This document shows, piece by piece, positions 2-48,666 of a stretch of 64,000 nt of DNA. The number at the start of each line of letters is the position of its first letter. The stretch's first letter is position 1. The notes beneath the pieces are model-generated. The model was not told where the DNA came from and did not search any database. It saw only the letters and a program-made list of their open reading frames with translations. A program made the position numbers and the translations under genes. This DNA is from a virus, in IMG/VR virus record IMGVR_UViG_3300036399_001297, positions 19,005 to 83,004 of that record. The stretch is one strand, 5' to 3'.

Positions 2-121
2 TATTTTCACCACCAACATAAATATATTCCGGATCATGATGAGATAAAATCTATATCAAAAGACGAATTAATTGTTTTTATGGGAGATTTGCAACAAAAT
101 TATGCTACATATGGAAAATGA
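2..121 (+). CDS. 3' end of an upstream gene (partial), possibly another glycosyltransferase-cluster protein
   Basis: Open frame from nt 2 (YFHHQHKYIPDHDEIKSISKDELIVFMGDLQQNYATYGK*) ending TGA at 121, overlapping the ATG at 111. Confidence 0.45.
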   Translation, partial: YFHHQHKYIPDHDEIKSISKDELIVFMGDLQQNYATYGK

Positions 122-2055: not shown

Positions 2056-2069
2056 ATTATTACTTATTA

Positions 2070-3569: not shown

Positions 3570-3640
3570 TTTGAATACTTATTTTTTTTTACAAAAAATA
3601 TTGATATTTATTGTTTTTGTAATAATATATAATATAAATT

Positions 3641-5101: not shown

Positions 5102-5103
5102 TC

Positions 5104-5643: not shown

Positions 5644-5644
5644 T

Positions 5645-6910
5645 ATGCAGACAGATCATAAACTTTTAATCAAATTTCCCACCAGAAACAGACCAGAAAA
5701 ATTTTTTTCGGTTCTTGATGAATATATAAAAAAGGCAAATAATTTAAACAAAATTGCTTTCCTGATTACTCTTGATAATGACGATCAATCTATGAAAAAA
5801 AATATCCATAGATTGGAAGAGTATAAAAAAATATGTAAATTAGTATATTTTTTCGGTGACAGCAAAACGAAAATACAAGCTTGTAACGCAGACATAAATA
5901 AGGTTTCTGGTTGGGATATTATTTTATTGGCCTCTGATGATATGATTCCGATTATAAATGGATACGATGATATTATTAGAAAAGATATGAATGATTTTTT
6001 TGGGGATATGGACGGAGTTTTGTGGTATAATGATGGCGGACAAAATCGAATCAATACCCTTTCTATATTAGGAAAAAAATACTACGAGAGATTTGGTTAT
6101 ATTTATCATCCAGATTATATTAGCCTTTGGTGCGATAACGAATTCACCGAAGTATCGGAACGTTTAAATAAAGTATATAAATCCGATAAAATTATTATAG
6201 AACATAAACATCCAGCATACCAAAAAACAAATTATGATGAATTGTATGTAAGAAACGAATCATACTTTAGCATAGATAAAGAAATATACGAAAGAAGAAA
6301 CGCTAAAAATTTTGATTTAGATGAAAAAGATTATCCTATAAGTTTATCGATTTTGACTCCGTCCGTACCAGAAAGGATAGAATCGCATCTAATTCCTCTT
6401 TTAAATAAAATTAAAGGTCAAATCGGAGATTTGCCAATAGAACATTTAGTTTTAATAGATAATAAAAAAAGAAGCATTGGTTATAAAAGAGATAGTTTGG
6501 TGAAAACCGCTAAAGGAAAATATTTGGCGTTTGTTGATGACGATGATGATATATCAGAAGATTATGTTTCTGAATTATATGACGCAATATCAAAAACTAA
6601 TGTAGATGTGATAACATTTGACCAATATTGTTATGTCAACGATAATGGAGTTAGTGTTATAAATTTTTCATTGAATCATAAAGAAAATGAAAATTACCGC
6701 CCAAACTCTAATATAAAAAGAATGCCTTTCCATGTGTGCGCTTGGAGAAGTAAAATAGCCCAAAAATATGATTTTGTCGATTTAAATTACTCCGAAGATT
6801 GGTATTGGTGTGAGCAACTTTTAAAAGAAACAAAAACAGAATTTCATATAGATAAAATTTTACACTCATATATCTATAGTGATAAAGTTACAACAACACC
6901 TCATAGATAA
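5645..6910 (+). CDS. tandem two-domain GT2-like glycosyltransferase
   Basis: Domain 1 FPTRNRP/LASDDM/WCDNEF; domain 2 LSILTPS/AKGKYLAFVDDDDD/SEDWYW. Confidence 0.85.
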   Translation: MQTDHKLLIKFPTRNRPEKFFSVLDEYIKKANNLNKIAFLITLDNDDQSMKKNIHRLEEYKKICKLVYFFGDSKTKIQACNADINKVSGWDIILLASDDMIPIINGYDDIIRKDMNDFFGDMDGVLWYNDGGQNRINTLSILGKKYYERFGYIYHPDYISLWCDNEFTEVSERLNKVYKSDKIIIEHKHPAYQKTNYDELYVRNESYFSIDKEIYERRNAKNFDLDEKDYPISLSILTPSVPERIESHLIPLLNKIKGQIGDLPIEHLVLIDNKKRSIGYKRDSLVKTAKGKYLAFVDDDDDISEDYVSELYDAISKTNVDVITFDQYCYVNDNGVSVINFSLNHKENENYRPNSNIKRMPFHVCAWRSKIAQKYDFVDLNYSEDWYWCEQLLKETKTEFHIDKILHSYIYSDKVTTTPHR

Positions 6911-7600
6911 ATGAAAAAAATGATAACTTTTTGTCTTTTTGGTGATAAAAAGATCTTTCAAGAGGGGGCAATTAAAAACATAAAATTGTCTCAAGAAATA
7001 TATCCAGATTGGATATTAAAATTTTATGTATTCAAAGAAGATTTTAATTTTTCATCAAGACTCGAAAACTATAAAAATGTAGAAGTTGAAAAAATTGATA
7101 AAGATGGAGGGTTTTATTCGACTATTTATAGATTTTTACCATTAAGCGATCCGAGTATTAATTATTTTATATCAAGAGATTGCGATTCTCGTATATCTTA
7201 TAGGGAGAAACTTGCGGTAGATGAATGGATAAATTCAAATAAATGTTTTCATATAATGAAAGATCATCCTTTTCATATAACACCGGAATATCCTATTTTA
7301 GCTGGTATGTTTGGATCAAAGGGAGGCATTTTTCCTGATATTAAAAACTATATGAAAAATATATGTAAAAATTTTGAGGATCAAAAAGGAATAGATCAAA
7401 AGTTTTTATACCATTTATATCATGATTATGTAAAAAATGATTATATATTGCATCATTCTGAAAACTTTCCTACACCTAGAGACTTTAAAAAAGATAAAAT
7501 ATTTTTTGTGGGTCAAGCCTTTGATGAGAATGATAATTTTCACGCCAACTGGAAAGTTGATTTAGAAAAATTAGGTATAAATATAAATAACTATCAATGA
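6911..7600 (+). CDS. putative GT-A glycosyltransferase-like protein
   Basis: ITFCLFG, YRFLP, ISRDCDSR (DxD), ILAGMFG, DQKFL; cluster context. Confidence 0.6.
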   Translation: MKKMITFCLFGDKKIFQEGAIKNIKLSQEIYPDWILKFYVFKEDFNFSSRLENYKNVEVEKIDKDGGFYSTIYRFLPLSDPSINYFISRDCDSRISYREKLAVDEWINSNKCFHIMKDHPFHITPEYPILAGMFGSKGGIFPDIKNYMKNICKNFEDQKGIDQKFLYHLYHDYVKNDYILHHSENFPTPRDFKKDKIFFVGQAFDENDNFHANWKVDLEKLGININNYQ

Positions 7601-8271
7601 TTTATATATATCATCATTTAGGTCTAGGGGATCATATAATATGTAATGGTTTGGTCAGATCGTTAATAAAAAATAATTTAGAATATACTTTGTTCGTTAG
7701 ACCCCAATATTTAAATAGTGTTAAATATATGTATAAGGATTTAACAAATTTATCATTTAAAGAAGGATGTGATAACAGTATAAATAATTTTTTATATAGT
7801 ATAGATGTTCACAATCAAATTAGAATAGGATTTATACAAGCACCAGAAAATTATTCTTGGGATGAATATTTTTATATCCAAAAAAACATATCATTCATAA
7901 ATAGATGGGAAATGTTTAAAATAGATAGAGATTTTTATAAAGAAGATGAACTGTTTAATAAATTAAATCCAGAAAATTCTAAATTTGCTTTGATACATAA
8001 TGCTGGTAGTGATGGTAATGATCGTATAGATTATTCTAAAATAGATCCAACCTTAAAAATTATTAAAGTTTCTCCCGAACACACAGATAACATTTTTAGT
8101 TATTTAGGATTGGTTTATAGAGCAGAAGAGATACATTGCGTAGAATCTTGTTTTAATGTGTTAGTTGATTCTCTAGACGTTAATACTAAATTATTTTATC
8201 ACAAAAATCATAATAGAAGAAGTGTAGAAAAAAATCAACATAAACTTAAAAAACAATGGATTATAGTATAA
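7597..8271 (+). CDS. putative glycosyltransferase (GT9-like GLGD motif)
   Basis: HHLGLGDHI at N-terminus, AEEIHCVESCF near C-terminus. Confidence 0.55.
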   Translation: MIYIYHHLGLGDHIICNGLVRSLIKNNLEYTLFVRPQYLNSVKYMYKDLTNLSFKEGCDNSINNFLYSIDVHNQIRIGFIQAPENYSWDEYFYIQKNISFINRWEMFKIDRDFYKEDELFNKLNPENSKFALIHNAGSDGNDRIDYSKIDPTLKIIKVSPEHTDNIFSYLGLVYRAEEIHCVESCFNVLVDSLDVNTKLFYHKNHNRRSVEKNQHKLKKQWIIV

Positions 8272-8906
8272 AAAATTTTGAAGAATATTATGATGTATTA
8301 CCAAACGGATTAATACATCAAAAAAAAATTATAAATGAAATTAAAAAATATGATTTTGAATATGTAAATGATCGATACAATTTGTATGGCGATCAATGCG
8401 ATATGATGTCTTATTTAAGGTATGGTTTTTTAATGGGTGCTATAAAAGAAATACCAAAATCTATATTGGATGTTGGGTATGGTAATGGAAGTTTTTTAAA
8501 AATATGTAAAAATTCAATTAAAACTTGTTATGGTAATGATATTTCGGGGTATCCCTTACCTAAAAATGTTTATTTCGTGGATGATATAACAAAAGATTAT
8601 TACGATGTTATTAGTTTTTTCGATGTTTTAGAGCATTTTGGTGATATAAATATAATAAAAAAATTAAATTGTAAATATATTTATATAAGTGTTCCAGAGT
8701 GTCATTTTATTAACAAAGAATGGTTTTGGAATTGGAAGCATCGTAGACCAGACGAACATTTATGGCACTTCAATATTGATTCTATAACGTCTTTTTTTAA
8801 AACAAATGGTTTCGATTTAGTTTCATCATCAAACGTGGAAGATATCATCAGAAAACCTTCCGACGAAACATCAAATATTTTATCTTGTGTTTTCCAAAAA
8901 AAATAA
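8256..8906 (+). CDS. class I SAM-dependent methyltransferase
   Basis: SILDVGYGNGSFL motif I; YDVISFFDVLEH; EHLWHF. Confidence 0.85.
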   Translation: MDYSIKNFEEYYDVLPNGLIHQKKIINEIKKYDFEYVNDRYNLYGDQCDMMSYLRYGFLMGAIKEIPKSILDVGYGNGSFLKICKNSIKTCYGNDISGYPLPKNVYFVDDITKDYYDVISFFDVLEHFGDINIIKKLNCKYIYISVPECHFINKEWFWNWKHRRPDEHLWHFNIDSITSFFKTNGFDLVSSSNVEDIIRKPSDETSNILSCVFQKK

Positions 8907-8919
8907 TATAATATTTTAA

Positions 8920-10719
8920 ATGAAAAATATTATATTTGAAACTTTAAAATTTCAAAACTTTCTATCGGTTGGGAATTCGCCAATCGAAATTAATTTTACT
9001 CAAGGTATTAATATAATAACCGGAGAAAATCTAGACAATATAGGTAGTAGAAATGGCATAGGAAAAACTACTATATTAAATGCTTTATATTGGAATATTT
9101 TTGGAGAGACTATCAACGATCTTAAAAAAACAAGAATACAAAATAATAAAAGTAAAGATGAATGTTTTAGTGTTTTAAATTTTAGTGCCGAAAAAGACCT
9201 TTTTAAGATCAAAAGAGTTTTAGAGCCAGCATCAATAAAAATTTTTAAAAACGATGAAGATATAACATTATCTACTATCGAAAAAAACAATGAATATATA
9301 TGTGATGTATTGGGGGTAAATCAAGATGTATTTAAAAATTCTGTTATATTATCGTCAGATAACACCATACCTTTTATGGCGCAAAAGAAAATAGAAAAGA
9401 GAAAGTTTATAGAAGGCGTCATGAATTTAAATATTTTCAGCGAAATGCTTTTAAAAATAAGAAAGGATTACAATGACACTAAAAAAATTTCTGATACAAA
9501 AACCGTTCTTTTTACCAGCGAGCAAAAAAATCTAGATAATTTAAAAAAACAAAAAATAAACAACGAAATTCTTAAAAATGAAAAAATTGAATCGTTATTA
9601 AATAGAATCGAAGACAATAAGAAAGAAATTAAAAATATACAGAATAATGATTTTGATGTAACAAATACCATTAAAAACCTACAAGAAGAGTTGTATAATA
9701 AAGAAGAAAAAATAAACGACATCGAAACAAAAGATTTTATAAAAATAAATGAAAAGTTAAAAGATTTTGAAATTTCTTTAAATGTAAAGAAATCAAAAAT
9801 AATAGATTTGAATAAAGAATTAGACAATCTTAAAAAAGCAACAGGTGTTTGCCCTAGCTGTAAAAGACCTTACTCGGAAGATAAATGTTCAAGCGAAGAT
9901 AGAATAAATGAAATAACAACAGAACTTGATAACCTAAAGAAAGACTTTAACGATATTTCCGATGAAGACGAAACATTAAAACTTAAATTAAACAAAATAA
10001 AAGAGATATTACAACAATCAAAAATTAAAAACGTTCAAATAAAAAAAGAAATAGAAAGACTTAAAAATTTAGATAATCAGATTAAAATTATAGAAACTAA
10101 AAACGAAGAGATATTAAAAAATATAGAAGCACTAAAGGATGAAAAAGACAATACTGATATATTAATAGAAAATTTAACAACCGAAATAAAAACAATACAA
10201 GAAGAAATAAAAACCTTATACAAAGAACTCGACATCCTAGAAAACGCTAAATTGATAGTTTCAGAAGACGGTGTTAAAACTATAATCATAAAGAAAATTT
10301 TAAAATTTTTAAATGAAAGATTGAACTTTTATCTTTTAACACTAGAAGCACCATGTTCATGTTATTTTGACGATACATTCGATACGACCATAAAAACATT
10401 AAACGGTAAAGATATGGATTATTGGAATTTATCTGGTGGAGAAAGAAAAAGAGTTGATGCTGCTGTAATTTTTACATTTCAAGATTTATTAAAAATGCAA
10501 ACTGGTATAAATTTTAACATCAGTATATATGATGAATGGGCTGATAGCGCATTAGATGAAAAAGGACTGGTAAAATTTTTGGAAATTTTAAGAAATAAAG
10601 TTAATAAAGAAAACGAATCAATATATATAATATCTCACAATCCAAATATTTCCAATATGGACATAGATAATATAATATTCCTACAAAAGAAAAACGGTAT
10701 TACTTCTATTAAAGTATAG
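8920..10719 (+). CDS. gp46-like recombination endonuclease ATPase subunit (Rad50/SbcC family)
   Basis: FQNFLSVGN, Walker A NGIGKT, coiled coil with CPSC zinc hook, LSGGE signature, IYDE Walker B, ISH. Confidence 0.93.
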   Translation: MKNIIFETLKFQNFLSVGNSPIEINFTQGINIITGENLDNIGSRNGIGKTTILNALYWNIFGETINDLKKTRIQNNKSKDECFSVLNFSAEKDLFKIKRVLEPASIKIFKNDEDITLSTIEKNNEYICDVLGVNQDVFKNSVILSSDNTIPFMAQKKIEKRKFIEGVMNLNIFSEMLLKIRKDYNDTKKISDTKTVLFTSEQKNLDNLKKQKINNEILKNEKIESLLNRIEDNKKEIKNIQNNDFDVTNTIKNLQEELYNKEEKINDIETKDFIKINEKLKDFEISLNVKKSKIIDLNKELDNLKKATGVCPSCKRPYSEDKCSSEDRINEITTELDNLKKDFNDISDEDETLKLKLNKIKEILQQSKIKNVQIKKEIERLKNLDNQIKIIETKNEEILKNIEALKDEKDNTDILIENLTTEIKTIQEEIKTLYKELDILENAKLIVSEDGVKTIIIKKILKFLNERLNFYLLTLEAPCSCYFDDTFDTTIKTLNGKDMDYWNLSGGERKRVDAAVIFTFQDLLKMQTGINFNISIYDEWADSALDEKGLVKFLEILRNKVNKENESIYIISHNPNISNMDIDNIIFLQKKNGITSIKV

Positions 10720-10754
10720 TTGTAATTTGTTAAAAATATGTAATTATAGTATAC

Positions 10755-12062
10755 ATGGCAATTTCACTTAGAGAAAACGATAGTAATATTAATAATAAAG
10801 TTGTATATCAATATAACATTATAAAATCAGGATTTCCTAATGCTCCTGTTGGAATGCCAACAGGATCTCCAAGCTATTCTTATGTGGCGGCAAGTCCTAT
10901 AAAAGTACCAGAACCACCTCCAATAGAAATGCCAGAAGCAAATTTACCTAGAGCATTAAATTATTATGCTGATTACGGTGGCTGTGGATATTGGCGCATG
11001 ATTTGGCCAGAATACCTTATTAATGGGTATAATAAAGGTATTATATCGGGAATGACTCAAATGATACTTGATATGCGTTTTTATAGTTCATTAAAAGCCG
11101 TTAGAATGCAAAGACAAGCCACCGATTCTCAGGTTGCATTTGTAGAAGAATTACAAAAAGTCAAAAAACAAATGGGATTCCGTTTGATCTATGAAATTGA
11201 TGATATAGCACTAAGAGATGATATTCCTCTTTATAATAGATGCAGAGATGCTTTTACAGACCAAAAGATTGTAGATAATATCATGAAAGTTATGGGATCG
11301 GTTGACGAAATAACCGTAACATGTAAATTCATGAAAGATTACTACCAAGATAAAACTGGTAATAAAAATATTACAGTTTTACCTAACTATGCTCCAAAAT
11401 TCTGGCTGGATAAATATTACGATAGAAAAAAATTAGAAAATAATTTTGATAAAAATAAGAAAAGACCTAGAATACTATATGCTGGATCAGGAACTCATAT
11501 TGACGTTCTAAATAGAACAGGCGGCAAGGATGATTTTGGTCATATTGTTGAGTCTATTATAAAGGCTAGAAAGAAATTTAAATTTGTATTTAAAGGATGT
11601 TATCCAGTAGCATTGAAACCATTCATCAATTCAGGTGAAATGGAATTTCACAATTGGTCGCCTTTATTTGAACTACCGAAAGGATTAGAAGAATTGGGCT
11701 GTAATGCAGTATATGCGCCTTTGGTTGATAATATTTTTAACAAGTCTAAATCTAATATTAAAATGATTGAATCCGGTGCTATCGGCCTACCCGGTGCATT
11801 CCAAGATCTTTGTACCTACGAAGAAGCACCGTTTAGATTTAAAACCGGAGATGAATTAATAGATCAACTATCTACGATAACAAAAGATTTTGATTCTTAT
11901 ATCAAGCATTCTACCAATGCTAGAAAATATGTTGAAACGATGTGGCTTGAAGATCATATCAACGAATATGAAGCCGTATATTTCACAGAATATGGCAGCA
12001 AAGAGAGAAATAAAAATGCTCCTAGATTGATAGAACTTAACCCCGAACAAAAAATAAATTGA
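10755..12062 (+). CDS. putative GT-B fold glycosyltransferase
   Basis: ADYGGCGYWRM, YEIDD, ILYAGSGTH, APLVDNIFNKSKSNIKMIE. Confidence 0.7.
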   Translation: MAISLRENDSNINNKVVYQYNIIKSGFPNAPVGMPTGSPSYSYVAASPIKVPEPPPIEMPEANLPRALNYYADYGGCGYWRMIWPEYLINGYNKGIISGMTQMILDMRFYSSLKAVRMQRQATDSQVAFVEELQKVKKQMGFRLIYEIDDIALRDDIPLYNRCRDAFTDQKIVDNIMKVMGSVDEITVTCKFMKDYYQDKTGNKNITVLPNYAPKFWLDKYYDRKKLENNFDKNKKRPRILYAGSGTHIDVLNRTGGKDDFGHIVESIIKARKKFKFVFKGCYPVALKPFINSGEMEFHNWSPLFELPKGLEELGCNAVYAPLVDNIFNKSKSNIKMIESGAIGLPGAFQDLCTYEEAPFRFKTGDELIDQLSTITKDFDSYIKHSTNARKYVETMWLEDHINEYEAVYFTEYGSKERNKNAPRLIELNPEQKIN

Positions 12063-15386: not shown

Positions 15387-16238
15387 ATGGCTAAAACTAA
15401 AAAAGAAAACCTAGAAAACGAACCCCTCGCTGACATTGACGATGCTTTTAAAATCCTAGATGATTTAAATCCAGACGCAGCATTTCTAAATGAGAATACC
15501 CTTTCCACAGTTAAGGAATGGATAGACACTGGTTGTATGGCTTTAAACGCTATAATTTCGGGTTCGTTGTATGGCGGTATACCTATGGGTAGAATTACAG
15601 GATTTGCTGGACCCCAAGCATGTGGAAAAACTTTAATGGTTAATAAAATAATGGCTCATGCTCAAAAGAAGGGTATGAGAGTAGCTTATTTTGATACTGA
15701 AAATGCTCTTGATCCTGATACAGCATCAAATTTAGGATGCGATCCATCAAAAATTAAACATTGTCCAACAGAGGTAATCGAAGAATGTAGAAATCAAATT
15801 GTAAAATTTTTGAAAAGCATCATCGATAATAATCTACAGGGAAAAGTTTTGTTGGTTATAGATTCTTTGGGAAATCTTATATCCTCTAGAGAAGCAAAAG
15901 TAATCGAAGACGGAAAAGATTCGGCAGATATGGGTGCGAGGGCTGTTGCGTGTTTATGTCCAAATACACTTATACACACCATAGACGGAGTTAAAAAGTT
16001 ATCCGATTTAAAAATAGGAGATTTTGTTTTGACTCATTTAGGTAGATATAAAATGATAACAAATAAGTGGGAAACAAACCATAAAGAATATATTAAAATA
16101 AAAACAAAAAATTCTTATATTTTATTATCAATAAATCATAAACTTTTAGTAAAAAGAAATTCAAAACTATCATATATAGAGGCCCAAAATATTAAACCTA
16201 CTGATAAATTATTAAAGTTTAACGAGCAAAATCATTAA
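15387..16238 (+). CDS. uvsX: UvsX/RecA recombinase N-extein (188 aa) fused to split intein N-fragment (95 aa)
   Basis: IDTGCMALN, Walker A GPQACGKT, FDTE, VIDSLGNL, DMGARA, then intein start CLCPNT. Confidence 0.93.
   Translation: MAKTKKENLENEPLADIDDAFKILDDLNPDAAFLNENTLSTVKEWIDTGCMALNAIISGSLYGGIPMGRITGFAGPQACGKTLMVNKIMAHAQKKGMRVAYFDTENALDPDTASNLGCDPSKIKHCPTEVIEECRNQIVKFLKSIIDNNLQGKVLLVIDSLGNLISSREAKVIEDGKDSADMGARAVACLCPNTLIHTIDGVKKLSDLKIGDFVLTHLGRYKMITNKWETNHKEYIKIKTKNSYILLSINHKLLVKRNSKLSYIEAQNIKPTDKLLKFNEQNH
15951..16235 (+). mobile_element. split intein IntN (UvsX)
   Basis: Block A CLCPNTLIHTIDG, LKIGDFVLT, block B SINHKLLV, IEAQNIKPTD; ends at TAA. Confidence 0.9.
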
Positions 16239-16269
16239 AATGTAGAGCAAAATACATAAGTATGAATAT

Positions 16270-17376
16270 ATGGAAAATATATTCATAAATTATTTTAAAA
16301 AGAATAAAATAAAATTATCAGAAAAATCATGGAATAATTTAACTCTTATAAAAAATATAAGAGTTGAAAAATTTTTATCAATACCTAAAAACGAAACTAG
16401 ATATAAATGGTTTTGTGATTATGACGGAACATCAACAGCTTTAAATTTTGTAAGAAAAAATAGCAAAAAAATAATGATAGAAAAACTTTGTTATATATGT
16501 GAAAGTAGTTTAGGTGAACAAACTTTATCAAAACAATTTTCTTTTATATATTCAAGTAATAACGAAAATCTCAAACCATCATCACATTTAAATAAAATGT
16601 GTTTTAATTGCGCCACAAGAGAAAATTCTAAAAACGGATTAGAGAAAAGAAAAAAAACATGCTTAGATAAATACGGCATAGAATATAAAATTTTAGATTC
16701 TGACGTAATTAAAAATAGAAAAAAAATTTTAACCGATAGATACGGTGAAAACTATAAAGAATTTTTTTGGGAAAAAGCAAAAAACACTTATATAAGAAAA
16801 CTTGGCGTTTCTCATAATACAAAAATTCCAGAAGTTCTGGAAAAAATGGTAAAAAATAGATTAGAAACATTAAAAACCTTATCTCCGGAAAAATGGAAAG
16901 AATGGTCTGATAATAAAATAAAGGCATATAACAAAGAAGGATCTAGTGGATTATTTGGCAGAAATGATTTTGATGGAAATAGTAAGATAGCTAAGGATTT
17001 TATATCTAAACTTATAAATGTATTAAATCTGCAAGAGAACGAATATATTACAGAAAAACCACATTCGAAATATAATATTGATCTTTATATAAAAGATTTG
17101 GTTATAGTAGAATTTTATGGTGATTTTTGGCACGCAAATCCAGAAATATATAAACCAGATGACATTATAGGTGTAAGTTACAACACAATTACCGCGAAAG
17201 AGAAATGGGAAAAAGACGCTTACCGAATAGAAAAATTAAAAAACGAATTAAATCTTCCGGTTATAATTGTATGGGAAAAATCATATAAAGAAAATAAAGA
17301 TAAAATAATACTTGATATAATCAAAAATATTAATATAATAAAAACCAACAAAGAAATTAAAACATATGTTTATTGA
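16270..17376 (+). CDS. free-standing homing endonuclease, EDxHD/Vsr-like, between the intein halves
   Basis: C-terminal IDLYI...VIVEFYGDFWHANP...WEKD...IIVWE; three KxTxxx(K/R)(Y/L)G repeats; CxxC...CxxC; TAAGTA 7 nt upstream. Confidence 0.8.
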   Translation: MENIFINYFKKNKIKLSEKSWNNLTLIKNIRVEKFLSIPKNETRYKWFCDYDGTSTALNFVRKNSKKIMIEKLCYICESSLGEQTLSKQFSFIYSSNNENLKPSSHLNKMCFNCATRENSKNGLEKRKKTCLDKYGIEYKILDSDVIKNRKKILTDRYGENYKEFFWEKAKNTYIRKLGVSHNTKIPEVLEKMVKNRLETLKTLSPEKWKEWSDNKIKAYNKEGSSGLFGRNDFDGNSKIAKDFISKLINVLNLQENEYITEKPHSKYNIDLYIKDLVIVEFYGDFWHANPEIYKPDDIIGVSYNTITAKEKWEKDAYRIEKLKNELNLPVIIVWEKSYKENKDKIILDIIKNINIIKTNKEIKTYVY

Positions 17377-18037
17377 AAATAATTACGAAGAAATTGATAT
17401 ACTAGAAATCACAAAAATAGAAGAAGAAAAAACTTTAATAGACATTTCTGTTGAAGAAGATGAGACATTTTGTATTACTGATGAAAGAATTATAAGTCAT
17501 AATTGTAAGTCTATGCTTAGAGCGATTACACATACAGCAGCAAAGGCTAATTGTCCTGTTGTTTTCACTAATCATATTTACGACAATCCTGGTGCGATGT
17601 ATCCAACCTTGATTAAAAACCAATCGGGTGGTTCTGGTCCTCTGTATATGAGTTCGGTACTGGTTCAGATGTCTACAAAGCAGGAACGAGTCGGAAAATC
17701 TGATAATAAAAATTCAAATGATGATGTCACACCTTTATCCAAAGATGTTAACGGATTAACAATGAGAGCATTGACTACAAAAAATAGATTCGTTCCTCCA
17801 TTTTTGGAATGTGAAATGTATCTAAATTTTAGAACCGGACTTTCTAAATATTCAGGATTATTGGAAATGGCAGAAGGTTACGGTGTAATAGCAAAACAAG
17901 GTCATAGATACGCTCTTGGAGAAGAAGTTTTAGGGTTTTATAAAGATTGGAGAGAAGATGAAATCGTCTGGAATAAGATCTTACCAAAACTTGAAGAGAA
18001 ATTGCAAACCGAATTGAAGTTTAAAAAAGAAGATTAA
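17366..18037 (+). CDS. uvsX: split intein IntC (46 aa, 17366..17503) fused to UvsX/RecA C-extein (177 aa)
   Basis: Block F LIDISVEEDETF, block G IISHN followed by Cys+1; then KSMLRAIT..VVFTNH, SGGSG, TKNRF. Confidence 0.93.
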   Translation: MFIENNYEEIDILEITKIEEEKTLIDISVEEDETFCITDERIISHNCKSMLRAITHTAAKANCPVVFTNHIYDNPGAMYPTLIKNQSGGSGPLYMSSVLVQMSTKQERVGKSDNKNSNDDVTPLSKDVNGLTMRALTTKNRFVPPFLECEMYLNFRTGLSKYSGLLEMAEGYGVIAKQGHRYALGEEVLGFYKDWREDEIVWNKILPKLEEKLQTELKFKKED

Positions 18038-33300: not shown

Positions 33301-34983
33301 TTAAAAAAATACCAGAGGATTATAACCGTCTTCGTTTTTTAATTCTTGTTCCTTTTTATCATTAGATCTCCAAATTATTTCTGGACTATGAGATTTGTAT
33401 TCATATTCGTATCTATTTTTTGTAATATTAGGTTCCCATTTAAGTAATTCCGATTGAAATCCTAATCCTTCTGATATAACAGCCGGATCTTCTTTTATTT
33501 TACCTTCGGGTAAATAGGCTAGGGGAGCATTATAAGATATTTCTTTTTTTGTGGTATTAACCGTACCAAATATAATAGGACTCTTTTTAATAAGATCGGA
33601 ATTATCGATAAAAGGAGTCATAAATAATGGTCTTCCTTGATCATCGGTTTGTTTAACATTAAAATATTTTTGTGCTAATGTTGGTTCTAGGATAAATAAA
33701 GCCCATACTAATGACCAAACTCTATCATCTCTATCACTTTCATTTTTTTTAGAAAATGTGTAATTAGGCAGTTGTACAAATTCTGCTATTTCTATTAAAG
33801 TATCGAGATCAAATATTTTAACAGCTTTTAAACTATCTACCCAATAACGGAAATTTGTCATACTCCGATATCTAGTATTCGTATGATTGTATATACCCAA
33901 TCTATTTTCATTATTGTAGTGCTGAGACATCCCCTCAAATTTATAAGTAACCACTGATTCATAATTGTGGGTTCTGGCAACAACATCTAAAACCTGTTGA
34001 CCGTAATTATTGTTTTCGATTAGTATAGGAGGTCTACCCCAATCATTTGCGATACCGATAAGACGTGTACCGAAATGATACGGTGTTATAGTATTGGATG
34101 CAAATATAGCCACCTGTTCTATATTGGTTAAATCTGAAACATCTAAAACTTGAGCTACTGTATTAGTTCTTCCTATCCCCTCACCAACGTCCACCCCTAT
34201 AATATAATGACTTGTTGGTTTTGGTTGTCTATAAATTTTATAAGAACCTTCGTCTGTTGCTAAAATAGGCTCTTTACATAATTTTTTAAGTTCTTCTAAA
34301 TGTTCGGCTGATATAACAGATTTGCCTAACGTATGAAAAGTATTTTCGTGTTCTTGTTGAAATGTATGTAGTGATCCTAATGAAGCTATTTCACTTTTCT
34401 TCCATTCTTCATTACGGTCATCATTTTCACTCCAATGCACTTTTTCCAGTTTCCATCCACTGTCAGGTTTTTGAGCTTCTAAATATAATTGATAAAATTT
34501 ATTTTCTTTATCGGCTCCGTTAGGTGTAGATATTCCAACAATCTGACTTTTTTTAGAAGACGTTATAGTAGGTATAACAGATTTCCATAATTCCTCCATC
34601 AAATCATTTTGTATATGTGCCATTTCATCAATTATGAGGCATTGATGTGATAATATATTATTAGAAATATATTTATGATTATCTACAACTTCTAAAAATT
34701 CATAAACAGGATCATTATTTTCATATTCCTCTTTTTTTATTAAAGAAATATTATTCCAAAAAATATCACCGATTTTAGAATTTTTAGCATATTTCCATTT
34801 TTTTGATGAAATCATAATTTTATGTTTAGGTGTACAGTTTAAAATTTCACCATTAGAAAAGTATAATTTTAACTTTTTATTATTTTTTCCAACAATTAAT
34901 CCTTTAAAATCTTTAAATCCCTCATCGGTTAAAATTTCAAAATCATTATTTTTATAAATTTTGTAATCAGATAAATCGGCCAT
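33301..34983 (-). CDS. split intein IntC (114 aa, 34983..34642) fused to large terminase C-extein (Walker B + nuclease domain)
   Basis: EILTDEGFKDF, CTPKHKI, VYEFLEV, ILSHQ|CLIIDEMAH, ISTPNG, FQQEH, IGVDVGEG, IENN, DDRV; ATG 1 nt after the endonuclease stop. Confidence 0.92.
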   Translation of the reverse strand: MADLSDYKIYKNNDFEILTDEGFKDFKGLIVGKNNKKLKLYFSNGEILNCTPKHKIMISSKKWKYAKNSKIGDIFWNNISLIKKEEYENNDPVYEFLEVVDNHKYISNNILSHQCLIIDEMAHIQNDLMEELWKSVIPTITSSKKSQIVGISTPNGADKENKFYQLYLEAQKPDSGWKLEKVHWSENDDRNEEWKKSEIASLGSLHTFQQEHENTFHTLGKSVISAEHLEELKKLCKEPILATDEGSYKIYRQPKPTSHYIIGVDVGEGIGRTNTVAQVLDVSDLTNIEQVAIFASNTITPYHFGTRLIGIANDWGRPPILIENNNYGQQVLDVVARTHNYESVVTYKFEGMSQHYNNENRLGIYNHTNTRYRSMTNFRYWVDSLKAVKIFDLDTLIEIAEFVQLPNYTFSKKNESDRDDRVWSLVWALFILEPTLAQKYFNVKQTDDQGRPLFMTPFIDNSDLIKKSPIIFGTVNTTKKEISYNAPLAYLPEGKIKEDPAVISEGLGFQSELLKWEPNITKNRYEYEYKSHSPEIIWRSNDKKEQELKNEDGYNPLVFF

Positions 34984-34984
34984 T

Positions 34985-35851
34985 TTATTTTTTTCTATGT
35001 TTTTTTCCACCACTTTTTATCCATCCAGTTGGAATATCTTGAGAAATAGGATGTCTTTTAATCTTATTTGTAGTCGTATCACATATAAAAATATATTTTT
35101 CTATACATTTTTTACCAGTGCCTTTTACCCATCCATCAGGTATAGTTATATCCGGATTATGTCGTTTACAAACATTAGCGACTGAGTTATATATATAAAT
35201 AGAACCTTTACCTGATATTTTTGATATATTTTCTTTATTATTTTCGCGTGATTTTAAAATACCATCCCTAATATTTTTTTTAGCTTCTTCGGATCTTTTC
35301 ATACCCCTGTGTTTTTCGGCCATTTTTTTAATTTTTTCGGGATTTTTATTGATTTTTATCATACGTTCTTTATGTTTTTCCGGATTTTCTTTTATCCATT
35401 TTTTAATACCAATTCCTTTTCTTTTATTTATTTCTGGATTATCAAAAACTTTTTCTCTCATCATTTTTTTATAGTCTTCAGATTTCCATTTTTTTTTAAA
35501 TCTTGTAGATATCTTTTTTATTGCCTTTGATGACCACGCACAAGGCCCATAGCCACCTTCTTTAATGTTATACGTATCATTTCTTTCTATAAATTCTAAT
35601 GTTACTAATTTTCTTTCGGCGTGAAGTGCTTCTTGATACGTATTATAAAAATTCAATATTGTTTTTTTAAAATTTTCTATTCCATATTTTTTTATGGATC
35701 TTTTTAAATTAAGACCAGACCCCATATAACCATCATCTATATTATCTGTCCTATGAACTCCTATATAAATTTTACCGTTTTTAATATTTTCAATTTCATA
35801 TAAATAATTGTATTTTCTATTTATTTTCGGATCGTTTAAATGTTTCTTCAT
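34985..35851 (-). CDS. free-standing GIY-YIG homing endonuclease (Seg-like) between terminase halves
   Basis: YLYEIENIKNGKIYIGVH..DDGYMGSG, YNIKEGG, NUMOD3-like HRGMKRSEEAKKNI, two IPxGWxK repeats; TATAAGTA 6 nt upstream. Confidence 0.88.
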   Translation of the reverse strand: MKKHLNDPKINRKYNYLYEIENIKNGKIYIGVHRTDNIDDGYMGSGLNLKRSIKKYGIENFKKTILNFYNTYQEALHAERKLVTLEFIERNDTYNIKEGGYGPCAWSSKAIKKISTRFKKKWKSEDYKKMMREKVFDNPEINKRKGIGIKKWIKENPEKHKERMIKINKNPEKIKKMAEKHRGMKRSEEAKKNIRDGILKSRENNKENISKISGKGSIYIYNSVANVCKRHNPDITIPDGWVKGTGKKCIEKYIFICDTTTNKIKRHPISQDIPTGWIKSGGKKHRKK

Positions 35852-35898
35852 TAGAAATACTTATACACGATGATTTATTATAGATGAATTTGCTTATA

Positions 35899-37638
35899 TC
35901 AATCATTTAAAACTATAAAATGAGGCGGTTCTTCTTGATTATTTTTTAACAATTCTTCTAGATCTTTTAAATTGATTTTAAATATTTCTTCTGTTTTTTT
36001 ATCTTTTAATGTTACAATTGTGTCACCAGTAACACAATTTATAGATTGACCTCTAACAGCAGAAGCAGAAGTAGAAGAAACTATAATACTTGACCCATTA
36101 CTAAGATCGAATCCGTTTTTTCTATTAGATTTTACAGCTGGTTTTAAATATACAGGCAATTCTTCAAAAGCCATTTTTATTCTAGAAAAAATTTCCATGG
36201 CAGTATCAGCTTTGTTAGCCAGTATAGCAACTTTTTTATATTCATGAAAGCATACTAACCATAAAGCATACATGGAAACAATTGTGCTATTGTGAGTAGG
36301 TATTAAACCTTTTCCACATAGATATAAAGAATCTGGACTATCTACGGTGATACATCTAACAGGAACACTTTCTACTTCTTTAATATCTTTTATATAAAAA
36401 TATTGATTTCTTTTAGATGTTGACAAATAAGTTTTTACAAATCTAGAACATTTAAAATCCGAACAAGTAACACATTCTCTTGGTTTAAAATATAGAATAC
36501 CACATTTTGTATATTCTTTATCTTTAATTTTAGGTATTTTTTCATTATATTTTACCTTATATCCTAAACTTTCTATCAATTCTTTTACTTGTAAAATTAA
36601 AGGTATATTAGTATTATAAAAAATAGCACTTCCGTTTTTTTCAATATATCCATCAGAATCCATTAAACCTTTTAAAAGCTCCATTCTTTGATGTTTGGAT
36701 GCTTTTAAAAATATATCGGGTATATGTTTATTTTTAAATAAATTGTTAGTTCTTAAATGATAGTATAAAGAATTTTTTTTATCTTCGTTAGTTAATTTTA
36801 CAAGAAAATTGTCTTTTTTATATTCTTTAACGTTTATTATTTTATAAAAATCTAATTCTTTTATCTTTTTTAAAATAGAATCTATATCTCTTATTCCTAT
36901 AGTTATTCTAGAATCATTCGAATGTCCATCTCCTAACCACAAACCTAAAATATATGGATTTATAGGTAAATTCTTGTTATCATTATATAAACCATCTACA
37001 CACGAAATTATACGATGATTTGGTTCTCCGCTTAATGTCGTTAAAGTTTTTAAAATTTCTTCTGTTGTTTTTGAACAACCTTTACTTTTTTTAGTTTTTC
37101 TATCATTTCTAGTTTCAGTAAACCAAAGATGTTCAGCATCAGCGATTATTTTTTCACCGTTATCAAATAATATTTCGTAACATTTTCTATTGTGTAATAT
37201 ATCATGCGCTTTTGTTACGTTGTAGATGTTTCCGTCAGAACCATATATTTTATCTCCGGTTTTTAAATCTCCCATTTTTAAAAATCCATTTGGAGTTGGT
37301 ATAGGAGTTTCAATAGAAAGAGCTTTCCCCATCTGTCTCGAAGCACATACCAATAATCTTCTTTCGTCCTTTAAACTTTTTAATATTCTTTTTTGATATT
37401 TTCTAAGTTTAATTTTTATTTTACCTTCATCTAAATTTACAATATGAAAATGTCTTTCCGCAAAATGTAAAATACTTTTAGCACATGTTCTATTTTCTTC
37501 GAACATCTCTTCGGTAAAGATTATTTTTGCGTTCTTGTTTAGAAGATTTTCATTTCCTTTATAATATCCACCATCGACAAGAATATTATCTTTATCAATT
37601 TCAGGAACATCAGGAATAGGTGCTTTTTTTCTTGGCAT
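35899..37638 (-). CDS. large terminase (gp17-like) N-part with contiguous intein and terminal split-intein IntN
   Basis: LRKYQ, Walker A ASRQMGK|intein|ST, ILANK, AVRGQSIN|CVTGDT. Confidence 0.93.
   Translation of the reverse strand: MPRKKAPIPDVPEIDKDNILVDGGYYKGNENLLNKNAKIIFTEEMFEENRTCAKSILHFAERHFHIVNLDEGKIKIKLRKYQKRILKSLKDERRLLVCASRQMGKALSIETPIPTPNGFLKMGDLKTGDKIYGSDGNIYNVTKAHDILHNRKCYEILFDNGEKIIADAEHLWFTETRNDRKTKKSKGCSKTTEEILKTLTTLSGEPNHRIISCVDGLYNDNKNLPINPYILGLWLGDGHSNDSRITIGIRDIDSILKKIKELDFYKIINVKEYKKDNFLVKLTNEDKKNSLYYHLRTNNLFKNKHIPDIFLKASKHQRMELLKGLMDSDGYIEKNGSAIFYNTNIPLILQVKELIESLGYKVKYNEKIPKIKDKEYTKCGILYFKPRECVTCSDFKCSRFVKTYLSTSKRNQYFYIKDIKEVESVPVRCITVDSPDSLYLCGKGLIPTHNSTIVSMYALWLVCFHEYKKVAILANKADTAMEIFSRIKMAFEELPVYLKPAVKSNRKNGFDLSNGSSIIVSSTSASAVRGQSINCVTGDTIVTLKDKKTEEIFKINLKDLEELLKNNQEEPPHFIVLND
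35902..36036 (-). mobile_element. atypically short split intein IntN (45 aa)
   Basis: CVTGDTIVTLKDKKTEEIFKINLKDLEELL.. contains block A only; block B is on the IntC. Confidence 0.88.
36289..37323 (-). mobile_element. contiguous class 3 intein (345 aa) with LAGLIDADG endonuclease
   Basis: Ala1 (ALSIETPIPTPNG); block B ADAEHLW; block F VRCITV; block G IPTHN|S; LGLWLGDG and LKGLMDSDG motifs. Confidence 0.9.
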
Positions 37639-47790: not shown

Positions 47791-48666
47791 TTATAAAGTA
47801 TTTATATTAATTTTTTGTTCTTCTATATAATATCCTTTTATTTTATACGGCATTCCGTTTTTTCTTTTTTTATTAAAAGTATTTCTTAATCCTCTATAAT
47901 CAATATTTCGTTCTCTGCAAAAAACTACAAGTTTATTGACTTTTATTTTTTCATTTTCTGGAGTCACGACAATATATGAATATGCTGTTTTTTGAATTTT
48001 TTGGCTATTTTTTTCTCTAAAACTTTTAAGTCTTTCTATTTCTAATTGTTTTTTATAATGATTGTTATAGTTTAAATTGTATTTTTTTATCCATTTTGAT
48101 ATTGTATTTCTATCAAGATTTATTTCGCTGGCAATATCTTTTATTAATACATTTTCGTTTAATTTTTTTTGTATATGTTCTATTTTTTCTTTATTTTTTA
48201 AATACAATGTTTTTTTTGTACTTTCTGTTTGTTTTTTTCTCATATCTTTATAAAAATCTTCTCCATATATTTTTTTGATTTCTTCTACGCTTAAAGGTTG
48301 ATTTCCACCATTCAATAAATTACATAAAGTTCCTTTTCCTTCAATTCTTTTACCATATAAATTTATTAATTCCAATTCTTTTTCTAAAGCTTCTTTTTCA
48401 GTCAAACTATCAACTAATATTTTTTCAGTAAAATCAGAATTTTTATTAAAAATAGATTTCAATTTACAATATAAAAAATAATTTGTTATTTTTCCTAATT
48501 TATAATTTTTTCTGTGATGTTTATATCTTTTATCGGTTCCTTTTCCTATATAAAAACATATATCATTTTCATCAAATAACCCATACACATAGTATTTTTT
48601 TCCATATAAATATTTACCAATCTTTACACGCAATAATTTATTTTTAAAACTTGTAGAAAATACCAT
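47791..48666 (-). CDS. free-standing GIY-YIG (LEM-3-like) endonuclease with C-terminal HTH
   Basis: YYVYGL..FYIGKG..R..H, EALEKE.ELI..YG, LCNLLNGG; IKDIASEINLDRNTISKW. Confidence 0.8.
   Translation of the reverse strand: MVFSTSFKNKLLRVKIGKYLYGKKYYVYGLFDENDICFYIGKGTDKRYKHHRKNYKLGKITNYFLYCKLKSIFNKNSDFTEKILVDSLTEKEALEKELELINLYGKRIEGKGTLCNLLNGGNQPLSVEEIKKIYGEDFYKDMRKKQTESTKKTLYLKNKEKIEHIQKKLNENVLIKDIASEINLDRNTISKWIKKYNLNYNNHYKKQLEIERLKSFREKNSQKIQKTAYSYIVVTPENEKIKVNKLVVFCRERNIDYRGLRNTFNKKRKNGMPYKIKGYYIEEQKININTL

What the first reader, a model, noticed from the sequence alone, without database searches (positions are those of the whole stretch)
34642..36036. Atypically split TerL intein (45/114 aa) ending in His-Gln rather than His-Asn
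Seen: IntN has only block A (CVTGDT...). Blocks B (CTPKH), F (VYEFLEV) and G lie on the downstream ORF, which ends TCA CAT CAA TGC = S-H-Q|C. Known: atypically split TerL inteins (AceL-TerL, GOS-TerL) have short IntN fragments and end in HN; C-terminal Gln is rare and reported in a few contiguous inteins such as CIV RIR1 and Pyrococcus PolII. Block F4 is Glu here rather than the usual Asp. Inference: a naturally split, Gln-cyclising intein, possibly undescribed and useful for semisynthesis.
Basis: partly seen in the sequence, partly recalled or inferred. Interest (0 to 1): 0.85.

Follow-up and report, generated by a model that had tools for sequence, protein, structure and literature searches.

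The report
Glutamine-ended split intein in phage terminase
The DNA-packaging motor gene of this uncultured lake phage is cut into two genes by a two-piece self-splicing protein element that has an unusually short first half, ends in glutamine instead of the usual asparagine, and carries a selfish nuclease gene between its halves; the glutamine is an inherited trait of a large group of such elements, not an error.

Summary
On the minus strand, terL is broken between Asn189 and Cys190, just before Walker B, into three parts:
- an N-half ending in a 45-aa IntN (block A only);
- a C-half starting with a 114-aa IntC (blocks B, F, G) that ends Ser-His-Gln|Cys (TCA CAT CAA TGC).

A 97-99% identical intein-less TerL (P0023) fixes both junctions.

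The Gln is not a sequencing error. Independent assemblies carry CAA or CAG. 40 of 43 related IntC clusters end in Gln. Among 50%-identity representatives, Gln ends 27 of 80 inteins at this insertion site (21 split, 6 contiguous), against 1 of 117 at other terL sites.

Cys1, block-B Thr/His and Cys+1 are invariant, so the element is most likely an active trans-splicing class 1 intein that cyclises Gln in step 3. That step is inferred, not shown.

The closest solved relative is the consensus atypical TerL intein Cat (6DSL, about 29% identity), which seems to sit at another terL site.

The layout is known in kind. A conserved Gln in a natural split intein appeared in no paper I could search, but four key papers were not held.

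This scan found the same kind before on other DNA (three earlier notes).

I class it as a moderately interesting new variant of a known kind.

The parts
37324..37638 (-). terL N-extein, residues 1-105, up to the Walker A Lys (..SRQMGK)
   Evidence: 97% identical to residues 1-105 of the intein-less TerL P0023. phrog_36964 terminase large subunit, E 1.2e-74.
36289..37323 (-). Intein 1: a contiguous 345-aa intein in Walker A (GK|S). It starts with Ala, carries a LAGLIDADG endonuclease domain and ends THN|S. It is not part of the reported finding but lies in the same gene.
   Evidence: absent from P0023; absent from L002. LAGLIDADG_3, E 6.6e-8; its ends match the DnaB mini-intein structures 6RIX/6BS8, E 9.5e-26.
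36037..36288 (-). terL N-extein, residues 106-189 of the spliced protein (STIVSMY...RGQSIN)
   Evidence: collinear with P0023 residues 106-189.
35902..36036 (-). IntN, 45 aa. Cys1, block A, a beta hairpin and one helix form the conserved core (residues 1 to about 34). A variable tail of about 11 aa follows. The stop codon is at 35899-35901.
   Evidence: Cys1 is invariant in 7 of 7 IntN sequences; the predicted interface uses intein residues up to about 34 and not the tail.
34985..35851 (-). Free-standing GIY-YIG (SegE-like) homing-endonuclease gene, 288 aa, between the intein halves. Its stop TAA lies one base before the ATG of IntC.
   Evidence: PF19835 E 1.6e-6, PF01541 E 7.9e-5; phrog_314 E 2.3e-36; the same gene in the same place in L002, L022, L023/L024, L027 and L036.
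34642..34983 (-). IntC, 114 aa, with block B (C-T-P-K-H), block F (V-Y-E...H) and block G (I-L-S-H-Q). The terminal Gln codon CAA is at 34642-34644.
   Evidence: best solved match 6dsl_B CatC, E 1.1e-5. T51, H54 and C+1 invariant in 39 of 39.
33301..34641 (-). terL C-extein: Cys+1 (34639-34641), Walker B (LIIDE) and the nuclease domain, 446 aa plus stop
   Evidence: 99% identical (443 of 449) to P0023 residues 187-635. Terminase_6C, weak; phrog_2, E 5.3e-24.

Best explanation
This is a functional, naturally split class 1 intein inside the large terminase gene of an uncultured T4-like lake phage.

Origin (inferred). A mini-intein sat between Asn189 and Cys190 of TerL, one residue before the hydrophobic strand of Walker B. 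A free-standing GIY-YIG homing-endonuclease gene then inserted into the loop behind the intein's first helix, the 'S2' position. This fractured terL into two genes.

Proposed mechanism (steps inferred from the established class 1 pathway):
1. The N-half carries a 45-aa IntN and the C-half begins with a 114-aa IntC that holds almost the whole HINT fold.
2. After translation the short IntN docks onto IntC.
3. Cys1 forms a thioester.
4. Cys+1 takes over the N-extein.
5. The terminal Gln, in place of Asn, cyclises to a glutarimide and releases the intein.
6. An S-to-N shift leaves an intact TerL with the sequence ...SIN-CLIIDE....

Intein 1 in Walker A must also splice out, giving a 635-aa protein.

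The Gln is an inherited trait of a clade of inteins at this site and interchanges now and then with Asn. The endonuclease most likely drives spread of the whole cassette into intein-less terL alleles.

Shown: the anatomy, the exact junctions, the conservation, and the patchy distribution. Inferred: association of the halves, splicing, Gln cyclisation and homing.
For: Exact in-frame insertion:
- The intein-less TerL P0023 reads straight across both junctions.

Catalytic residues are kept over deep divergence:
- Cys1 in 7 of 7 IntN sequences.
- Block-B Thr51 and His54, and Cys+1, in 39 of 39. Block-F His in 38 of 39. Mean column identity of the alignment is 48%.

The Gln is real and selected:
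- CAA in the window and in five loci from other contigs (L001, L002, L022, L026, L027).
- The synonymous CAG in L023/L024, and AAC (Asn) in L036.
- 40 of the 43 IntC-bearing clusters that my pattern picked out of 120 listed hits end in Gln: HQ 31, RQ 4, QQ 2, NQ 2, KQ 1, against KN 2 and SN 1.
- Among the 150 listed representatives of 690 hits, 197 matched stretches were classified. Gln ends 27 of 80 at this site and 1 of 117 elsewhere (Fisher p 2.4e-11).
- Six of six 'internal' Gln cases are contiguous mini-inteins at the same site, with a linker where the window has the break.

The same layout recurs in diverged phage contigs:
- N-extein, IntN, GIY-YIG, IntC, C-extein in L002, L022, L023/L024, L027 and L036. 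L026 is split without the endonuclease gene.

Patchy distribution:
- In one search, the 18 loci other than near-copies of the window whose C-exteins are closest to the window's (53-66% identity: L003, L006-L021, L025) have no intein at this site.
- TerLs at 34-46% C-extein identity carry it, with IntC at 50-59% identity.
- Three allelic states occur among 97-99% identical exteins: neither intein (P0023), the split intein only (L002), and both (the window).

Homology and predicted docking:
- The closest solved relative is an atypically split TerL intein, 6dsl_B CatC (E 1.1e-5).
- Predicted complex of IntN with IntC: score 0.73, best of 3 controls 0.00. That mark was reached by 116 of 157 solved complexes and 2 of 215 mismatched pairs. 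The runs agree in at least 82% of their contacts, and the partner's pLDDT is at least 68.
- The predicted interface includes Cys1 against blocks B, F and G.
- A like complex (6DSL) is solved, so this pass may reflect likeness rather than this copy's binding.

Gln can serve in step 3:
- Passages of the review PMC4031507 report that the Pab and Mma PolII inteins splice slowly with native Gln, and that the CIV RNR intein splices better with Gln than with Asn.
Against: - No experiment or read-level data: splicing, association of the halves and Gln cyclisation are untested for any member.
- The penultimate His, which usually helps cyclisation, is replaced in 10 of 39 relatives, so step 3 may be slow or differently assisted.
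- The record is only about 39% complete, so a second, intact terL elsewhere in the genome cannot be excluded.
- The tree of the site's inteins is poorly resolved: 2 of 77 inner branches are starred. 'One clade with Gln' is therefore not shown. Only clustering is shown: 10 changes against 22.8 in shuffles, with 0 of 500 shuffles as low.
- Higher identity of the intein than of the C-extein could partly reflect different rates of change rather than transfer.
Confidence: 0.85

Rival explanations
1. The intein halves no longer splice. They serve only as a docking pair that holds the two TerL halves together non-covalently, as in split phage enzymes that have no intein.
For: Dassa et al. 2009 (PMC2677866, passages read) cite phage genes fractured by endonuclease genes that work as two pieces without splicing (Aeh1 NrdA). 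The terminal residue is the non-canonical Gln, and the penultimate His is lost in 10 of 39 relatives.
Against: Residues needed only for chemistry are invariant at 48% mean column identity: Cys1 in 7 of 7, and block-B Thr and His and Cys+1 in 39 of 39. The last residue is always Gln or Asn (43 of 43), the two residues with a side-chain amide that can cyclise. The break lies one residue before the Walker B strand, where 159 extra residues would sit inside the ATPase core.
Confidence: 0.07
2. The intein splices, but the C-terminal bond is not broken by Gln cyclisation. Another route resolves the branched intermediate, for example hydrolysis or slow cleavage helped by neighbouring residues.
For: Six-membered ring closure by Gln is reported as slow in the PolII inteins. 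The review also notes that 'other mechanisms are possible' for inteins with non-Asn ends (figure legend passage).
Against: The position tolerates only Gln or Asn in 43 of 43 clusters. The codons CAA, CAG and AAC all occur. This fits a need for a side-chain amide.
Confidence: 0.05
3. The CAA codon or the split is an assembly or sequencing artefact, or the gene is a decaying pseudogene.
For: The window is a metagenome-derived virus record.
Against: The same codon and the same three-gene layout occur on a contig from another sample (L002), and the same codon on a third, truncated one (L001). Open frames of all three genes occur in five further diverged loci. Gln is conserved across the family.
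Confidence: 0.01

Closest known systems
Atypically split TerL inteins: AceL-TerL, GOS-TerL and their consensus Cat (PDB 6DSL)
   Same: - Host gene terL of uncultured aquatic phages.
- Naturally split.
- A short IntN with block A only, broken behind the first helix. This is the 'S2' position named for AceL and GOS TerL in PMC13014065 (passage).
- A long IntC: 104-115 aa there (review table, PMC11766414), 114 aa here.
- Cys+1.
- Detectable homology of IntC to CatC: E 1.1e-5, about 29% identity by my count of the printed alignment.
   Different: - Ends in Gln. The solved CatC chain has Ala at that place, presumably a trapping mutation. That the natural ones end in Asn is recalled, not checked.
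- IntN is 45 aa, against 25, 37 and 30.
- The insertion site is probably different. CatC's extein begins Cys-Glu, and CatC matches an intein at the QEFN|CEFL site of P0010 better (E 9.3e-10). The window's intein sits at SIN|CLIIDE.
- The primary papers were not held.
'Fractured genes' of Dassa, London, Stoddard, Schueler-Furman and Pietrokovski 2009 (PMC2677866; abstract, passages and supplement 1 read)
   Same: [quoted passage not shown]
- One of their loci is a gp17-like terminase with an unusually long (122-aa) IntC that holds all motifs except N1.
   Different: - Their terminase IntC (supplement 1) ends ...SHN followed by Ser. It resembles the Walker-A-site split inteins seen here in P0058-P0060 and L057, not the window's Walker-B-site intein.
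- In the passages I read, they list Asn among the catalytic residues of the new split inteins and mention no Gln ending.
Inteins with a C-terminal Gln: Pyrococcus abyssi and P. horikoshii PolII, Methanoculleus marisnigri PolII, and Chilo iridescent virus RNR (PMC4031507 and PMC8175363, passages)
   Same: The terminal Gln takes the place of Asn in step 3. The penultimate His and Cys+1 are present in the PolII inteins.
   Different: - Those are contiguous inteins of archaea and a eukaryotic virus in other host proteins.
- None appeared among the solved-structure matches to IntC at E up to 10, so there is no close kinship.
- Here the Gln is combined with a natural split and is conserved across a large clade.

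Membership tests
Class 1 intein (HINT domain, standard four-step splicing) | Cys, Ser or Thr as the first intein residue | tested here: met
   Cys1 directly follows ...QSIN. It is invariant in 7 of 7 IntN sequences.
Class 1 intein (HINT domain, standard four-step splicing) | Block B Thr-x-x-His | tested here: met
   T-P-K-H. Thr51 and His54 are present in 39 of 39.
Class 1 intein (HINT domain, standard four-step splicing) | C-terminal His-Asn | tested here: not met
   His-Gln here. Gln in 36 and Asn in 3 of 39; His in 29 of 39. A known tolerated variant (PMC4031507).
Class 1 intein (HINT domain, standard four-step splicing) | Cys, Ser or Thr as the first C-extein residue | tested here: met
   Cys+1 in 39 of 39.
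Class 1 intein (HINT domain, standard four-step splicing) | In-frame insertion at a conserved site, with intein-less alleles that read straight through | tested here: met
   P0023 reads ...RGQSIN-CLIIDEMAH.... 73 of 84 fetched loci have no intein at this site.
Class 1 intein (HINT domain, standard four-step splicing) | Protein splicing demonstrated | not testable with these tools
   Needs expression of the two halves.
Naturally split intein in a 'fractured gene' (Dassa 2009) | Host gene in two ORFs in the original order and strand, each carrying one intein half | tested here: met
   ORFs 35899..37638 and 33301..35013, both on the minus strand.
Naturally split intein in a 'fractured gene' (Dassa 2009) | Free-standing homing-endonuclease gene between the halves | tested here: met
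   GIY-YIG ORF 34985..35851. It recurs in 6 related loci.
Naturally split intein in a 'fractured gene' (Dassa 2009) | The two halves associate | tested here: inconclusive
   Prediction only: score 0.73 against a best control of 0.00. The pass may stem from likeness to the solved 6DSL.
AceL-TerL / GOS-TerL / Cat atypically split TerL inteins | Short IntN with block A only, split behind helix 1; long IntC with blocks B, F and G | tested here: met
   45/114 aa. The predicted interface uses the hairpin and helix of IntN.
AceL-TerL / GOS-TerL / Cat atypically split TerL inteins | Sequence kinship with the characterised members | tested here: met
   6dsl_B CatC is the best solved match to IntC, E 1.1e-5, but only about 29% identical. 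IntN alone finds nothing.
AceL-TerL / GOS-TerL / Cat atypically split TerL inteins | Same insertion site in TerL (allelic) | tested here: inconclusive
   CatC's extein starts Cys-Glu, and CatC matches a QEFN|CEFL-site intein better (E 9.3e-10). The window's site is SIN|CLIIDE. The exteins in the solved construct may be engineered, and the native sites were not checked.
AceL-TerL / GOS-TerL / Cat atypically split TerL inteins | Terminal Asn | tested here: not met
   The window has Gln. That the named members end in Asn is recalled.

The most novel reading that the evidence does not exclude
Gln is not a neutral stand-in for Asn. It is kept because an atypically split IntC already contains nearly the whole HINT fold (blocks B, F and G). 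With Asn, such an IntC would tend to cut off its C-extein before the short IntN arrives. The slower six-membered ring closure of Gln would make C-terminal cleavage wait for assembly.

A hint in this direction: the last two residues seem to change together. In the closest 43 clusters the endings are His-Gln (31) or Lys/Ser-Asn (3) and never His-Asn. This would fit tuning of the step-3 rate.

If true, this clade would offer natural split inteins with built-in suppression of premature C-cleavage.
Probability: 0.15. Interest if true: 0.6.

Novelty: new variant of a known kind. Interest (0 to 1): 0.42.

Why it matters
Short-IntN split inteins are wanted for protein semisynthesis and labelling, because the short half can be made chemically. 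Only a few natural ones are named in the papers I could read: AceL-TerL, GOS-TerL, VidaL and PolB16.

This locus belongs to a large natural family with dozens of diverged and probably orthogonal pairs. The family uses Gln where almost all inteins use Asn, and it exists in both split and unsplit forms at one insertion site. That gives three things:
- a natural series for asking how Gln cyclisation is catalysed and what it costs or buys in rate and side reactions;
- a clean example of how a free-standing homing endonuclease turns a mini-intein into a split intein at a place other than the usual endonuclease-domain site;
- near-identical alleles with neither, one or two inteins, which make homing directly testable.

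It does not overturn anything known about inteins.

Tried and rejected
- **Read support for the CAA codon.** The look-up of sequencing runs listed 20 runs. No read-level check was made, and I used independent assemblies instead.
- **Near-identical DNA in the phage collection.** No match.
- **IntN alone against solved structures.** Only chance-level hits, E 0.5 or more.
- **Primary papers.** Bachmann and Mootz 2015, Stevens 2018 and Burton 2020 are not held by DOI or PMC id. I did not try to fetch Thiel 2014. The end residues and native insertion sites of AceL-TerL and GOS-TerL therefore stay unchecked. Any Gln-ended members in those papers' alignments or supplements would be invisible to me.
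- **Literature searches.** None returned a paper describing a split intein with a terminal Gln. This covers only the held library.
- **Tree of the 80 site-b inteins.** Too few columns (115) and only 2 of 77 branches starred. I rejected any claim of a single origin of Gln and keep only the claim of clustering.
- **Is Gln linked to being split?** Gln: 21 split, 6 contiguous. Asn: 31 split, 22 internal. Fisher p 0.14. No support.
- **Promoter and terminator scan.** 40 promoter-like sites against 30.7 +/- 5.9 expected, and 0 terminators. Uninformative at 30% G+C.
- **Earlier notes by place.** Nothing for this genome.
- **Limits of the pattern used.** The pattern missed P0050 (a GIY-YIG protein fused in frame to IntC, ending HQ) and P0074 (a contiguous allele ending Thr-Asn). 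Both were seen by eye and are not in the 43.

Full report
**What is there.** The window is part of an 83-kb linear virus record, about 39% complete by CheckV's estimate. It has 30% G+C. PHROG matches to tail sheath, tail tube, baseplate wedge, UvsX, a DnaB-like helicase, DNA polymerase and RNR indicate a T4-like myophage.

Three consecutive genes lie on the minus strand between 33301 and 37638:
- **ORF 35899..37638 (579 aa)** is the N-terminal part of the large terminase (phrog_36964, E 1.2e-74). It ends ...RGQSIN followed by CVTGDT... and a stop 45 residues later.
- **ORF 34985..35851 (288 aa)** is a GIY-YIG, SegE-like homing endonuclease (PF19835 E 1.6e-6, PF01541 E 7.9e-5; phrog_314 E 2.3e-36).
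- **ORF 33301..35013** continues the terminase (phrog_2 E 5.3e-24). Its conserved start is the ATG at 34983, one base after the endonuclease's TAA. In 39 aligned relatives the protein begins M-A-D, with M1 and D3 invariant. The first 114 residues hold C-T-P-K-H, V-Y-E-F-L-E-V...H and I-L-S-H-Q. After them comes C-L-I-I-D-E-M-A-H, the Walker B motif.

The codons TCA CAT CAA TGC are at 34650..34639. The endonuclease gene was not mentioned.

**Exact boundaries.** The protein search returned a 635-aa intein-less TerL, P0023. It is 97% identical to the window's first 106 residues and 99% identical (443 of 449) to the C-extein. It reads ...RGQSIN-CLIIDEMAH... without interruption. The split intein therefore sits between Asn189 and Cys190 of the mature protein. 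IntN is 45 aa, IntC is 114 aa, and the last intein residue is Gln.

The same comparison shows a second element in the window's gene. It is a 345-aa insertion between Lys105 and Ser106 of Walker A, treated under 'In passing' below.

The evidence comes from independent assemblies and from relatives.

*Codon evidence:*
- Two IMG/VR contigs from other samples carry the same codon CAA. L002 has the IntC 99% identical. L001 is cut off inside the IntC, with the C-extein 87% identical.
- The diverged loci L022, L026 and L027 also have CAA.
- L023/L024 have the synonymous CAG.
- L036 has AAC (Asn).

*Close relatives:*
- A word-indexed search with the first 220 residues of the C-half gave 245 hits with E up to 0.001, of which 120 were listed.
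- A pattern for IntC plus Walker B picked 43 of the 120.
- 40 of these end in Gln (HQ 31, RQ 4, QQ 2, NQ 2, KQ 1) and 3 in Asn (KN 2, SN 1).
- The pattern missed two further cases seen by eye: P0050, ending HQ, and P0074, a contiguous allele ending Thr-Asn.

The Gln is therefore a family trait under selection, not an error.

**How wide is the family, and where is Gln found?** An exhaustive HMMER search of 1.84 billion 50%-identity representatives with IntC plus seven extein residues found 690 proteins at E up to 0.001. Of these, 128 were at 1e-10 or better, and 150 were listed.

In those 150 proteins I mapped 197 matched stretches and sorted them by the extein sequence that follows. These terL genes are an intein hot spot with at least six insertion sites, and up to three inteins in one protein.

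| Site (following extein) | Stretches |
|---|---|
| Walker A, GK\|S/T | 24 |
| The window's site, N\|C-h-h-h-D-E | 80 |
| DE\|CAF | 33 |
| \|C(L)DE | 7 |
| \|C-x-h-h-h-h-DE | 16 |
| \|CEFLG | 16 |
| Other | 21 |

- Gln ends 27 of 80 inteins at the window's site and 1 of 117 elsewhere (Fisher p 2.4e-11).
- At the window's site, 21 of the Gln forms are split (IntC at the start of the protein) and 6 are internal.
- All 6 internal ones are contiguous mini-inteins. They have a block-A Cys right after ...N and a linker where the window has its break.
- Asn forms at the site: 31 split and 22 internal.
- Being split is not significantly tied to Gln (p 0.14).

A tree of the 80 inteins, built without their last two residues, is poorly resolved: 115 columns, and 2 of 77 inner branches starred. 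Gln is nevertheless clearly clustered, with 10 changes against 22.8 in shuffles and 0 of 500 shuffles as low. The window's intein lies in a group of 21 representatives, 17 ending in Gln and 4 in Asn (SH-aLRT 87). I claim clustering and repeated Gln/Asn exchange, not a single origin.

**Signs of function.** In 39 aligned C-halves with 48% mean column identity:
- the block-B Thr and His, the Cys before them, and Cys+1 are invariant;
- the block-F His is kept in 38;
- the last residue is Gln in 36 and Asn in 3;
- the penultimate residue is His in 29;
- block F position 4 is Glu in 29 and Asp in 10.

In 7 IntN sequences, Cys1 is invariant. The first 34 or so residues are conserved (64% mean column identity over the alignment), and the last 8-11 residues vary freely.

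A complex prediction of IntN (with six extein residues) and IntC (with eight) scored 0.73, against 0.00 for the best of three controls. That mark was reached by 116 of 157 solved complexes and 2 of 215 mismatched pairs. The runs agree in at least 82% of their contacts, and the partner's pLDDT is at least 68. The interface joins Cys1, the hairpin and the helix of IntN to the start of IntC and to blocks B, F and G. It leaves out the variable tail. Because a like complex (Cat, 6DSL) is solved, the pass may show likeness rather than binding of this copy.

Together these results point to an active trans-splicing intein. No step of the chemistry was observed.

**Mobility.** The order N-extein, IntN, GIY-YIG gene, IntC, C-extein recurs in L002, L022, L023/L024, L027 and L036. 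L026 has the split without the endonuclease gene.

Of 84 fetched loci (L001 and L005 are the same contig):
- 9 carry the split intein at this site;
- 2 carry inteins at other sites (L020, L057);
- 73 have none at this site.

The distribution is patchy. The 18 loci other than near-copies of the window whose C-exteins are closest to the window's (53-66% identity: L003, L006-L021, L025) have no intein at this site. TerLs at only 34-46% C-extein identity carry it, with IntC at 50-59% and the endonuclease at 46-58% identity.

Among nearly identical exteins, all three states exist: no intein (P0023), the split intein only (L002), and the split intein plus intein 1 (the window). The intein-less close relatives keep Cys at the +1 position (P0023, P0042, P0045, P0046, P0048). 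More distant TerLs mostly have Leu or Ile there.

This fits gain and loss by homing of the cassette. Cleavage by the endonuclease was not tested.

**Comparison with what is known.**

*Fractured genes.* Dassa et al. 2009 (PMC2677866; abstract, passages and supplement 1 read) named this layout. They reported one gp17-like terminase locus with an unusually long IntC. That IntC ends ...SHN before Ser. It resembles the Walker-A-site split inteins that I also see (P0058-P0060, L057), not the window's intein.

*Atypically split TerL inteins.* AceL-TerL (IntN 25, IntC 104), GOS-TerL (37/115) and their consensus Cat (30/104) are the characterised members (review PMC11766414, passages and table). Their break lies behind the first helix, the 'S2' position (PMC13014065, passage), as here.
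- The best solved match to the window's IntC is CatC (6dsl_B, E 1.1e-5, about 29% identity by my count).
- CatC matches an intein at the QEFN|CEFL site of P0010 better (E 9.3e-10), and its own extein starts Cys-Glu.
- The characterised family therefore probably sits at a different terL site. This is not certain, because the construct's exteins may be engineered and the primary papers were not held.

*C-terminal Gln.* It is known in contiguous inteins. The Pab and Mma PolII inteins splice slowly with native Gln and faster with Asn. The CIV RNR intein splices better with Gln than with Asn (PMC4031507, passages; PMC8175363, passages).

*Literature.* None of my seven literature searches returned a paper on a split intein with a terminal Gln.

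**Earlier notes of this scan.** After I had formed this reading, a word search showed three earlier follow-ups on other genomes that describe the same kind of element and reach the same view: e1-6084974, e1-5856561 and e1-5327318. I tested the shared claims here on this window's own data. The notes did not change my scores.

**Verdict.**
The split is caused by a GIY-YIG gene, the trait belongs to a clade and also occurs in unsplit alleles, and Gln cyclisation is inferred rather than shown.
- Every ingredient is known: the fractured gene, the atypical S2 split in terL, and Gln as the last residue. Their conserved combination at a distinct insertion site appears undescribed in what I could search.
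- I class it as a new variant of a known kind, with interest 0.42.

**In passing.**
- Intein 1 (36289-37323) begins with Ala, has Trp two residues after the block-B His, Cys at block F position 4 and Thr-His-Asn at its end. It matches the DnaB mini-intein structures 6RIX/6BS8 at E about 1e-25. These are the marks of a class 3 intein, a label I give from recall.
- The phage's uvsX is also a fractured gene, with a canonical split intein and a 368-aa ORF between the halves.

Noticed in passing
window 36289-37323 (-): A second intein in the same terL, in Walker A (GK|S). It is 345 aa long, starts with Ala and carries a LAGLIDADG domain. It has Trp two residues after the block-B His, Cys at block F position 4 and Thr-His-Asn at its end. 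These are the marks of a class 3 intein (the class label is recalled). Its ends match the DnaB mini-intein structures 6RIX/6BS8 at E 9.5e-26. It is absent from the 97-99% identical alleles P0023 and L002 and present in a diverged form in L023, so it is polymorphic and probably mobile.
   Followed up: partly
window 15387-18037 (+): uvsX is also a fractured gene. The N-half (RecA 44-169) ends in an IntN of about 95 aa that starts CLCPNT. A 368-aa ORF follows (16270-17376; only DUF7487, E 3.9e-6). The C-half then starts with an IntC of about 46 aa ending ISHN|C. This is a canonical split with a terminal Asn.
   Followed up: partly
P0047 (960 aa): Besides the Gln-ended split IntC at its start, this TerL C-half carries a LAGLIDADG intein at the ..VS|TP.GTGN site that ends Gly-His-Gln before Thr. 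This is a second, unrelated-looking Gln-ended intein in the same protein.
   Followed up: no
P0057, P0131, P0140, P0141, P0145, P0147, P0154 and others: terL genes of this phage group are intein hot spots. There are at least six insertion sites around Walker A, Walker B and the QEF motif. Up to three related inteins occur in one protein, and many are split at the atypical position.
   Followed up: partly
P0050 (733 aa): A GIY-YIG endonuclease is fused in frame to IntC plus the TerL C-half. This is either a read-through form of the cassette or a gene-calling artefact. If real, the endonuclease would be made as part of the splicing precursor.
   Followed up: no
L026:683-1230: The same split intein (ending Lys-Gln) has no endonuclease gene between the halves, only about 55 bases of spacer. 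The split appears to persist after loss of the endonuclease gene.
   Followed up: no
IntC family, last two residues: In the 43 closest clusters the endings are His-Gln (31), other-Gln (9) or Lys/Ser-Asn (3). His-Asn never occurs, although it is common in more distant clades at the same site. This may be co-variation of the last two residues. It was not tested on independent pairs.
   Followed up: no
window 47791-48666 (-): Another ORF with a weak match to the same homing-endonuclease PHROG (phrog_314, E 1.4e-6). Pfam gives only weak helix-turn-helix hits.
   Followed up: no
window 72-12062 (+): A run of at least five glycosyltransferase-like genes and a methyltransferase-like gene lies next to the replication genes.
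   Followed up: no
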